From the NCBI RefSeq assembly GCF_024502345.1, contig NZ_JALDNN010000001.1: 64,000 nucleotides of DNA; one strand, written 5' to 3'. The notes below the pieces were generated by a model, which had not been told where the DNA came from, made no database searches, and worked only from the letters and a program-made list of their open reading frames with translations. The position numbers and the translations under genes were made by a program. This document shows, one piece after another, positions 52,655 through 53,042 of the stretch (its first letter is position 1; the number at the start of each line of letters is the position of its first letter). This DNA is from Escherichia coli (lineage in GTDB: Bacteria; Pseudomonadota; Gammaproteobacteria; Enterobacterales; Enterobacteriaceae).

Positions 52655-53042
52655 ATATAAATTATCAATAAAAGACGTTATTTTATCATTATTTATAATG
52701 AGTTATGAGTATTTGTTTTATTACGGTTGTTAGATCTATACAAAAAGTATCTTTTACAGTGGCTTCGCTATTTTAAAAAGGAATTCATATAAGGAAAAAT
52801 ATAATTATGTTATTTATTGGCAGATTGAGTTGACAGGGGGCAGAACTCTGAGGGTAAGAAAAGTCAGCAACAACAATCCACTACATCAACAGACCAGCAA
52901 TCGCGTGCCGAGATACGCTGGAAATACCCGAAGATTGAACTGGCGGATGGTGTGACTGACATCAGTCAGTGATGACTGTTTAGCAAACTATGTTCGACCA
53001 GTCAGCATATTTGCTGACTGGTCGAATTAATTAACAATGATG

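What the first reader, a model, noticed from the sequence alone, without database searches (positions are those of the whole stretch)
52992..53027. Perfect 13-bp inverted repeat immediately after the ancestral elaD stop, without a T tract
cgaccagtcagca-tatt-tgctgactggtcg is a perfect palindrome with a 4-nt loop, and a second imperfect tgactgac/gtcagtga repeat lies just upstream (52950-52980). Lacking a U tract, it looks more like a protein-binding operator or an RNA-stabilising 3' hairpin than an intrinsic terminator, and it sits in the spacer where a divergent promoter would be expected.
Basis: seen in the sequence. Interest (0 to 1): 0.3.

Follow-up and report, generated by a model that had tools for sequence, protein, structure and literature searches.

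The report
Shared 3'-end hairpin of yfbK/elaD
The palindrome is real, but it is an ordinary RNA hairpin between the tail ends of two genes that face each other (yfbK and elaD) in E. coli, most likely a transcript-end and stabilising element, and both genes are dead in this strain.

Summary
The inverted repeat exists and is longer than reported. It has 15-bp perfect arms (52993-53007 and 53012-53026) and a TATT loop. RNA folding gives -29 (+ strand) and -27 (- strand) kcal/mol, z about -9. It is the longest perfect hairpin in the 64-kb window.

The window is E. coli. The palindrome is not in a divergent-promoter spacer. It lies in the 70-bp spacer between convergent genes, 20 nt after the yfbK stop and 16 nt after the elaD stop. 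In this strain yfbK is an internally deleted remnant. elaD is broken by an IS5-family insertion and a frameshift.

The hairpin is single-copy. It is found in 4199 of 5426 complete E. coli genomes and is identical in 3707. It is absent, together with elaD, from B2 strains, which carry a REP-like hairpin there instead. It was not found in other species, phages or Rfam.

A rare divergent allele breaks the DNA symmetry but keeps 13 of 15 pairs on the elaD-sense RNA. Published bicyclomycin data place a Rho-dependent termination region at the elaD 3' end, and the sequence downstream is C-rich.

Best reading: a U-tract-less 3' stem-loop of the known Rho-dependent-transcript class. An operator reading is unsupported. 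Interest is low.

The parts
52993..53026 (.). Perfect palindrome: 15-bp arms and a 4-nt loop (TATT). It forms an RNA hairpin when transcribed from either strand.
   Evidence: It is identical in 3707 of 4199 E. coli genomes that carry it.
52992..53027 (+). Extended hairpin on the yfbK-sense RNA: 15 Watson-Crick pairs plus a closing G.U pair, followed by UUAAUUAA.
   Evidence: fold; tail score -3.35.
52955..52970 (+). Small 6-bp hairpin ACTGAC/GTCAGT inside the last codons of yfbK. It shares the CAGTCAG/CTGACTG motif with the main palindrome.
   Evidence: It is invariant in 14 genomes apart from single changes.
52791..52972 (+). yfbK remnant: the 5' end and the last 40 nt (52933-52972), with about 1.5 kb deleted internally. 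The start codon is mutated to ATA in this window. The stop TGA is at 52970-52972.
   Evidence: The same deletion allele gives full-length matches in 2578 genomes.
52973..53042 (.). The 70-bp convergent intergenic spacer between the yfbK stop and the elaD stop. The palindrome sits in its centre.
   Evidence: K-12 annotations; alignment.
53043..53669 (-). elaD 3' fragment, with the ancestral stop at 53043-53045. It carries a 1-bp deletion (frameshift) at about 53229/53230 relative to K-12.
53670..54726 (+). IS5-family insertion sequence (1057 bp) that interrupts elaD. The 9-bp target duplication GAGTAGGGG is at 53661-53669 and 54727-54735.
   Evidence: junctions; transposase matches NF033579, IS5 family, E 6e-107.
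54727..55328 (-). elaD 5' fragment, with the start MMVTVV... at 55328.

Best explanation
The palindrome is the shared 3'-end RNA hairpin of the convergent gene pair yfbK (+) and elaD (-).

In the elaD direction it is a stable stem-loop with no U tract. Transcription is stopped by Rho in the C-rich, untranslated RNA around and beyond it. The hairpin then blocks 3'-to-5' exonucleases (PNPase, RNase II), so the mRNA ends at its base, and it probably also pauses RNA polymerase.

In the yfbK direction the same stem is followed by an interrupted U-rich tail (UUAAUUAA). There it may act as a weak intrinsic terminator or pause site.

Because it must fold from both strands, only Watson-Crick pairs are tolerated, and this explains the perfect symmetry.

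In this strain both genes are pseudogenes, so the hairpin is an inherited relic.

Shown here: the anatomy, the position, the distribution and the folding.
Taken from papers: the Rho dependence near the elaD 3' end, and the general mechanism.
Inferred: that this particular hairpin defines the RNA ends.
For: - **Position.** The hairpin is centred in a 70-bp spacer between convergent stop codons, 20 nt and 16 nt away from them.
- **Stability.** The hairpin is very stable from both strands, and no canonical U tract follows it.
- **Downstream composition.** The elaD-sense sequence downstream is C-rich and G-poor (C 31%, G 17%, C/G 1.8 over 100 nt in K-12). Dar and Sorek report this as the signature downstream of protective stem-loops of Rho-dependent transcripts (PMC6061677).
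- **Published Rho data.** Adams et al. 2021 (PMC7815308, supplementary file 2) list a Rho termination region at 2383800 (+), at the elaD 3' end. The Rho score is 3.63 and p = 5.8e-8. Reads upstream/downstream are 165/21 untreated and 264/122 with bicyclomycin. The palindrome is at about 2383942-2383975.
- **A parallel next door.** The rbn gene just upstream ends with the same architecture: a hairpin with no sense-strand U tract, and a Rho termination region at 2382642 (+) in the rbn-elaD spacer.
- **The divergent allele.** In WL297 and 2013C-4282, nine stem positions differ, yet 13 of 15 pairs can still form on the elaD-sense RNA. Two pairs changed on both sides, three became U.G wobbles, and two loop-proximal pairs are lost. 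The fold is -20.5 kcal/mol on that strand against -14.7 on the other. yfbK is only a remnant in that strain.
- **Other natural variants.** All other natural variants keep -20 kcal/mol or better on both strands. The exception is one strain whose elaD is frameshifted.
- **Diversity.** In 93 usable contigs of the metagenome sample, nucleotide diversity is 0.009 per site in the palindrome and 0.02-0.03 per site in the spacer flanks.
- **B2 strains.** B2 strains lack elaD and have a different, REP-like hairpin at the equivalent yfbK/rbn convergent junction. This is consistent with a need for some hairpin at this junction.
Against: - No Term-seq 3' end at 23839xx is listed for elaD or yfbK in Adams et al. 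(supplementary files 1 and 3). Neither gene appears in the TERMITe supplementary tables. Low expression could explain this, but the predicted RNA end has not been observed.
- The Rho region's best position (2383800) is about 140 nt upstream of the hairpin, inside elaD, and it was computed with 800-nt windows. Rho may therefore act inside the AT-rich gene independently of the hairpin.
- Antisense (yfbK-sense) reads across elaD are substantial: 274 in the window before 2382764 (-). The hairpin is therefore not an efficient terminator in that direction, or internal antisense promoters exist.
- The covariation rests on a single divergent allele. Its two compensated pairs are adjacent, which a single DNA template-switch event could also produce. 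The shuffle control is only marginal (21 of 500).
- The lower diversity rests on few segregating sites (5 in 34 nt against 7 in 23 nt).
Confidence: 0.6

Rival explanations
1. It is a collision-type bidirectional terminator. The hairpin pauses RNA polymerases arriving from both genes, so that head-on and trailing collisions release them. This would work without Rho and without a U tract (Ju et al. 2019; Wang et al., bioRxiv 10.1101/2022.10.23.513370).
For: - The element lies between a convergent gene pair and encodes a hairpin in both directions.
- It does not resemble an intrinsic terminator.
- This is the anatomy the authors describe for the class.
Against: - The class is described as Rho-independent, yet the elaD-sense drop in reads is relieved 3.6-fold by bicyclomycin.
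- According to the authors the mechanism works best for highly expressed genes. Both of these genes are weakly expressed, with tens to hundreds of reads per 800 nt.
- The SEnd-seq tables could not be consulted.
Confidence: 0.12
2. It is a functionless palindrome: a quasi-palindrome made perfect by template-switch mutation, which looks conserved only because E. coli genomes are so similar. It would be a neutral passenger of the elaD segment.
For: - The element is confined to E. coli and is absent wherever elaD is absent.
- Single-base variants are all transitions, apart from one C-to-G change, and they show no strand bias. Three keep G.U pairing on the + strand and two on the - strand.
- About 12% of genomes carry an imperfect copy.
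- The two compensated pairs in the divergent allele are adjacent, as a templated event would produce.
- No RNA 3' end has been mapped here.
Against: - A 15-bp perfect stem centred precisely between two stop codons is the typical place for a transcript-end hairpin.
- Diversity is 2-3 times lower than in the flanks.
- The divergent allele retains a 12-13-bp stem on the elaD-sense RNA despite 26% sequence change.
- The worst-decayed copy is in a strain with a frameshifted elaD.
Confidence: 0.2
3. It is a DNA-level protein-binding site: an operator, or a recombination or boundary site of the elaD segment, recognised as a dyad.
For: - The dyad symmetry is perfect.
- Each arm contains a TGGTC/GACCA motif that resembles GntR/FadR-type half-sites.
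- Two structural breakpoints lie within 60 nt: the yfbK deletion junction at 52933 and the end of B2/non-B2 homology at about 52948.
Against: - No promoter-like site lies nearby, and the spacer is convergent.
- The half-sites face outward and are 16 nt apart, unlike FadR/LldR boxes (AAnTGGTCnGACCAnTT).
- The LldR gSELEX peak is listed inside yfbK, not in the spacer.
- Contiguous 15-bp arms are much longer than typical half-sites.
- The divergent allele breaks the DNA dyad at 5 of 15 positions while keeping the RNA pairing.
- The element is single-copy in each genome.
Confidence: 0.04

Closest known systems
[quoted passage not shown] 2012)
   Same: - It is a stable stem-loop shortly after the stop codon.
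- It has no U-rich tail and no upstream A tract.
- The sequence downstream is C>G-biased.
- Bicyclomycin-sensitive termination is reported in the neighbourhood.
   Different: - The steady-state RNA 3' end at this hairpin has not been mapped.
- The stem is unusually long and perfect (15 bp).
- It is shared by two convergent genes.
Bidirectional terminators between convergent genes (Ju et al. 2019, SEnd-seq; Wang et al. 2022 bioRxiv, collision model)
   Same: - It sits in a convergent spacer.
- A hairpin forms from both strands.
- It is not intrinsic-terminator-like.
   Different: - That class is reported as Rho-independent and most effective at high expression.
- Here the published data show Rho dependence and low expression.
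Canonical intrinsic (Rho-independent) terminator
   Same: - It has a strong stem-loop directly after a coding region.
- In the yfbK direction the tail is A/U-rich (UUAAUUAA).
   Different: - No 7-8-nt U tract follows it on either strand, and no A tract precedes it.
- The consensus scan does not call it.
REP/BIME elements
   Same: - It is an extragenic palindrome in a 3' untranslated region.
- B2 strains carry a REP-like hairpin at the equivalent junction.
   Different: - It is single-copy in each genome.
- It shows no resemblance, by eye and from memory, to the REP consensus.
- It is a perfect stem with a 4-nt loop.

Membership tests
Protective 3' stem-loop of a Rho-dependent transcript | An energetically stable stem-loop just downstream of the coding region, not followed by a U-rich tract | tested here: met
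   -27.3 kcal/mol on the elaD-sense strand, 16 nt after the stop; tail CAUAGUUUGCUAAAC
Protective 3' stem-loop of a Rho-dependent transcript | Termination of the transcript depends on Rho (bicyclomycin read-through) | tested here: inconclusive
   A published Rho region at 2383800 (+) has score 3.63. It is about 140 nt upstream of the hairpin and was computed at 800-nt resolution.
Protective 3' stem-loop of a Rho-dependent transcript | C-over-G enrichment (rut-like) immediately downstream | tested here: met
   C 31%, G 17% in the 100 nt downstream on the elaD-sense strand in K-12
Protective 3' stem-loop of a Rho-dependent transcript | The steady-state RNA 3' end maps at the base of the stem-loop and extends in pnp/rnb mutants | tested here: inconclusive
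   No 3' end at 23839xx appears in the Adams et al. Term-seq tables, and neither gene appears in the TERMITe tables. The Dar and Sorek tables are not held. Exonuclease dependence cannot be tested here.
Collision-type bidirectional terminator | It lies between convergent genes and encodes a hairpin on both strands | tested here: met
   (ancestral and K-12 arrangement). In the window both genes are pseudogenes.
Collision-type bidirectional terminator | Independence from Rho | tested here: inconclusive
   Published bicyclomycin data show 3.6-fold more read-through at the elaD 3' end. This argues against independence, but at coarse resolution.
Collision-type bidirectional terminator | Overlapping, sharply defined 3' ends of both transcripts (SEnd-seq) | not testable with these tools
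   Ju et al. 2019 is not held.
Canonical intrinsic terminator | A U tract of about 7-8 nt directly after a GC-rich stem | tested here: not met
   The scan calls nothing here. The tail scores are -2.02 (-) and -3.35 (+), against -7.15 for an ideal tail.
REP/BIME repeat family | Many copies per genome sharing the REP consensus | tested here: not met
   One locus per genome in 4199 genomes; no other copy in the window; no Rfam match above noise
Transcription-factor operator | A dyad site placed at or near a promoter, with the DNA symmetry conserved | tested here: not met
   No promoter-like site lies within several hundred bp. The spacer is convergent. The divergent allele loses the DNA symmetry at 5 of 15 positions. 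The LldR peak is elsewhere.

The most novel reading that the evidence does not exclude
The perfect palindrome is primarily a DNA-level element tied to the 1.5-kb elaD presence/absence segment. It could be a binding or recombination site that marks the segment boundary. Two independent structural breakpoints lie within 60 nt of it. Alternatively, it could be a U-less hairpin that terminates transcription by itself in both directions.
Probability: 0.05. Interest if true: 0.4.

Novelty: new member of a known kind. Interest (0 to 1): 0.1.

Why it matters
It matters little beyond annotation. The result places the 3' boundaries of elaD, a deubiquitinase gene of interest in pathogenic E. coli, and of yfbK. 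It also shows that the elaD segment carries its own transcript-end hairpin, while B2 strains have a REP-like hairpin at the same junction. If validated, it would be one more example of the U-tract-less stem-loops that end Rho-dependent mRNAs. It would also be a convenient natural test case: a perfect stem shared by two genes, with a natural allele that keeps pairing on only one strand.

Tried and rejected
- **ElaD scan of genome contigs.** It found no relative. I infer that the E. coli species representative lacks elaD, but this was not checked.
- **Degenerate palindrome pattern in genome contigs.** It gave 21 hits, all in unrelated taxa. This is about the number expected by chance (my estimate), and none is enterobacterial.
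- **Rfam, with an E-value threshold up to 10.** Only sub-threshold noise appeared (a snoRNA and a miRNA model on the hairpin).
- **Phage collection.** No match.
- **Plasmid collection.** Six records matched. Three are chromosome-sized records (about 4.8-4.9 Mb) filed as plasmids. The other three (126 kb to 1.4 Mb) carry the chromosomal yfbK-elaD genes and are probably chromosome fragments.
- **LldR gSELEX lead.** The peak is listed inside yfbK, and its box sequences are not the palindrome.
- **FadR/LldR-like half-sites in the arms.** Their orientation and spacing are wrong.
- **The search for homologous proteins with ElaD.** The 120 proteins listed are all 99-100% identical, so the search was useless for finding divergent loci.
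- **Search for further copies of the divergent WL297 allele.** Only two genomes carry it.
- **Term-seq and TERMITe supplementary tables.** No 3' end is listed at the spacer.
- **Supplementary data not held.** The Dar and Sorek tables and the Ju et al. 2019 paper could not be read.
- **Strand bias of G.U-compatible single variants.** There is none: three on the + strand and two on the - strand.

Full report
**Observation.** The inverted repeat is real and slightly larger than reported. The arms are TTCGACCAGTCAGCA (52993-53007) and TGCTGACTGGTCGAA (53012-53026). They are 15 bp long and 100% complementary, with a 4-nt loop TATT. As RNA it folds at -29.1 kcal/mol from the + strand, where a G.U pair (52992/53027) adds a 16th pair, and at -27.3 kcal/mol from the - strand. 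The z-scores are -9.2 and -9.8. It is the longest perfect hairpin in the 64-kb window. None of 100 dinucleotide-preserving shuffles gave a perfect arm longer than 12 bp. The consensus scan calls no terminator and no promoter-like site at or near it.

**Context.** The window is E. coli. The closest complete genome is O125ac:H10 strain C 236-04A, at 99.9% over 701 nt. The gene order in the window is:
- nuoN (+)
- yfbM (-)
- yfbL (-, frameshifted pseudogene)
- a yfbK remnant (+)
- the palindrome
- elaD (-, broken)
- rbn (-)

In K-12, yfbK and elaD are convergent with a 70-bp spacer. Alignment places the yfbK stop (TGA) at 52970-52972 and the elaD stop (TAA on the - strand) at 53043-53045. The stem therefore starts 20 nt after one stop codon and ends 16 nt before the other. 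The yfbL/yfbK divergent promoter region is elsewhere, at about 52655-52790. It is followed by an internally deleted yfbK that keeps the 5' end and the last 40 nt.

In this strain elaD is broken twice. A 1057-bp IS5-family element lies at 53670-54726, with a 9-bp target duplication. There is also a 1-bp deletion near 53229.

**Distribution.** A 40-nt query centred on the palindrome matches 4199 of 5426 complete E. coli genomes, at one locus per genome. It is identical in 3707, has one mismatch in 476, and has more than one in 17. The genomes without it include B2 strains, which are reported to lack elaD (PMC12575377). In the B2 strain PSUO2, homology with K-12 stops about 24 nt before the yfbK stop. 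From there to the rbn stop the sequence is unrelated. A REP-like inverted repeat (TCTGTTTGCCTGATA/TATCCGGCAAACAGA) sits between the now convergent yfbK and rbn. The palindrome therefore belongs to the roughly 1.5-kb elaD presence/absence segment.

It was not found anywhere else:
- An ElaD-based scan of 100,044 species representatives found nothing.
- A degenerate palindrome pattern gave only 21 hits in unrelated phyla, about the chance level.
- Phages gave no match.
- The six plasmid records that matched carry the chromosomal yfbK-elaD locus. Three of them are chromosome-sized records filed as plasmids.
- Rfam gave only noise.

**Variation.** I used an anchor in the yfbK tail, which does not select on the palindrome itself, to collect 95 metagenome contigs. 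Of these, 93 were usable. Nucleotide diversity is 0.009 per site in the palindrome (5 segregating sites in 34 nt). In the spacer flanks it is 0.02-0.03 per site (7 segregating sites in 23 nt). This is a modest reduction based on few sites.

The single-base variants seen in genomes are transitions that give a G.U wobble on one strand. Three do so on the + strand and two on the - strand, so there is no strand bias. All keep -20 kcal/mol or better on both strands. The most decayed copy has four changes and folds at -12 kcal/mol. It is in a strain whose elaD is frameshifted.

One deeply divergent allele was found, in WL297 and 2013C-4282. Its elaD is intact and its yfbK is a remnant. It differs at nine stem positions. 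On the elaD-sense RNA, 13 of 15 pairs can still form: two pairs changed on both sides (A-U to G-C and C-G to A-U), three became U.G wobbles, and only the two loop-proximal pairs are lost. RNAfold predicts a 12-bp stem at -20.5 kcal/mol on that strand. On the other strand the wobbles become A.C mismatches and the fold is -14.7 kcal/mol. The formal pair count gives 2 pairs with changes on both sides, and 21 of 500 shuffles reach the observed values.

This supports an RNA hairpin read in the elaD direction and argues against a DNA dyad, but it is a single allele. The two compensated pairs are adjacent, so one template-switch event could have produced them.

**Published transcript data.** Adams et al. 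2021 (PMC7815308) list a Rho termination region at 2383800 (+), classed as 'internal elaD'. The Rho score is 3.63 and p = 5.8e-8. Reads in the 800-nt windows upstream/downstream are 165/21 untreated and 264/122 with bicyclomycin (columns checked by recomputing the score). In those coordinates elaD ends at 2383924 and the palindrome is at about 2383942-2383975. Termination of elaD-sense transcription in this neighbourhood is therefore Rho-dependent, but the resolution does not tie it to the hairpin.

No Term-seq 3' end is listed in the spacer. Neither gene appears in the TERMITe tables. A second Rho region, 2382764 (-) antisense to elaD, has 274 upstream reads. yfbK-sense transcription therefore crosses elaD, so the hairpin is at best a leaky stop in that direction.

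The elaD-sense sequence downstream of the hairpin is C-rich and G-poor, with C/G 1.8 over 100 nt. Dar and Sorek report this signature downstream of the U-less stem-loops that end Rho-dependent mRNAs and protect them from PNPase and RNase II (PMC6061677). The neighbouring rbn gene shows the same layout. It has a hairpin without a sense-strand U tract, and a Rho region at 2382642 (+) in the rbn-elaD spacer.

**Interpretation.** The best-supported reading is a shared 3'-end RNA hairpin of the convergent pair.
- In the elaD direction it is the protective and pausing stem-loop of a Rho-dependent terminator.
- In the yfbK direction it is a weak, U-interrupted terminator or pause site (tail score -3.35).
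- The need to fold from both strands explains why the stem is purely Watson-Crick.

The collision-type bidirectional terminator matches the anatomy but not the Rho dependence or the low expression. A neutral palindrome cannot be excluded, because the element is confined to one shallow species and no RNA end has been mapped. An operator is unlikely for five reasons:
- The spacer is convergent.
- No promoter lies nearby.
- The element is single-copy.
- The LldR gSELEX peak is inside yfbK.
- The DNA symmetry is lost in the divergent allele.

**Verdict.** This is a real, non-random structure of an ordinary, known kind. It has not been individually described in the papers I could search, and it is a relic in this strain because both flanking genes are pseudogenes. 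Interest is low.

Noticed in passing
window 53043-55328: elaD is inactivated twice. A 1057-bp IS5-family element lies at 53670-54726 with the 9-bp duplication GAGTAGGGG, and a 1-bp deletion lies at about 53229/53230. The nearest complete genome (C 236-04A, L001) lacks this IS but has a different IS5-like element (ISKpn26 family) at another position in elaD. That suggests independent knock-outs in near-identical backgrounds.
   Followed up: partly
window 52791-52972: yfbK is an internally deleted remnant that keeps the 5' end plus the last 40 nt. In this window the start codon is ATA. The same deletion allele gives full-length matches in 2578 of 4208 matching E. coli genomes, including BL21 and O157:H7. 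WL297 (L004) keeps a longer 3' remnant, annotated as 93 nt.
   Followed up: partly
L014 2596-2715 (B2 strain PSUO2), compared with window ~52948-55503: B2 strains lack the whole elaD segment. Homology ends about 24 nt before the yfbK stop, so the last codons of YfbK differ. A REP-like hairpin lies between yfbK and rbn. The yfbK deletion junction (52933) and this homology breakpoint (~52948) are only about 15 nt apart, both just upstream of the palindrome.
   Followed up: partly
window 55464-55497: The rbn-elaD spacer contains the hairpin AACAGGGC-AAGTTTC-GCCCTGTT. On the + strand, which is antisense to rbn and elaD, it is followed by TTTAATAATAA. In the rbn-sense direction it has no U tract. 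The consensus scan does not call it. Adams et al. list a Rho region downstream of it in the rbn sense (2382642 +).
   Followed up: partly
window 51353-51418: Only 66 bp separate nuoN and yfbM. In K-12 this interval is several kb long and holds at least yfbP (seen in the Adams et al. table). From memory it also holds yfbN and yfbO. The window therefore carries a shorter version of this interval.
   Followed up: no
window 52048-52655: yfbL is split into several short ORFs here. It is annotated as a frameshifted pseudogene in the closest genomes. All three genes around the palindrome (yfbL, yfbK and elaD) are therefore decayed in this strain.
   Followed up: no
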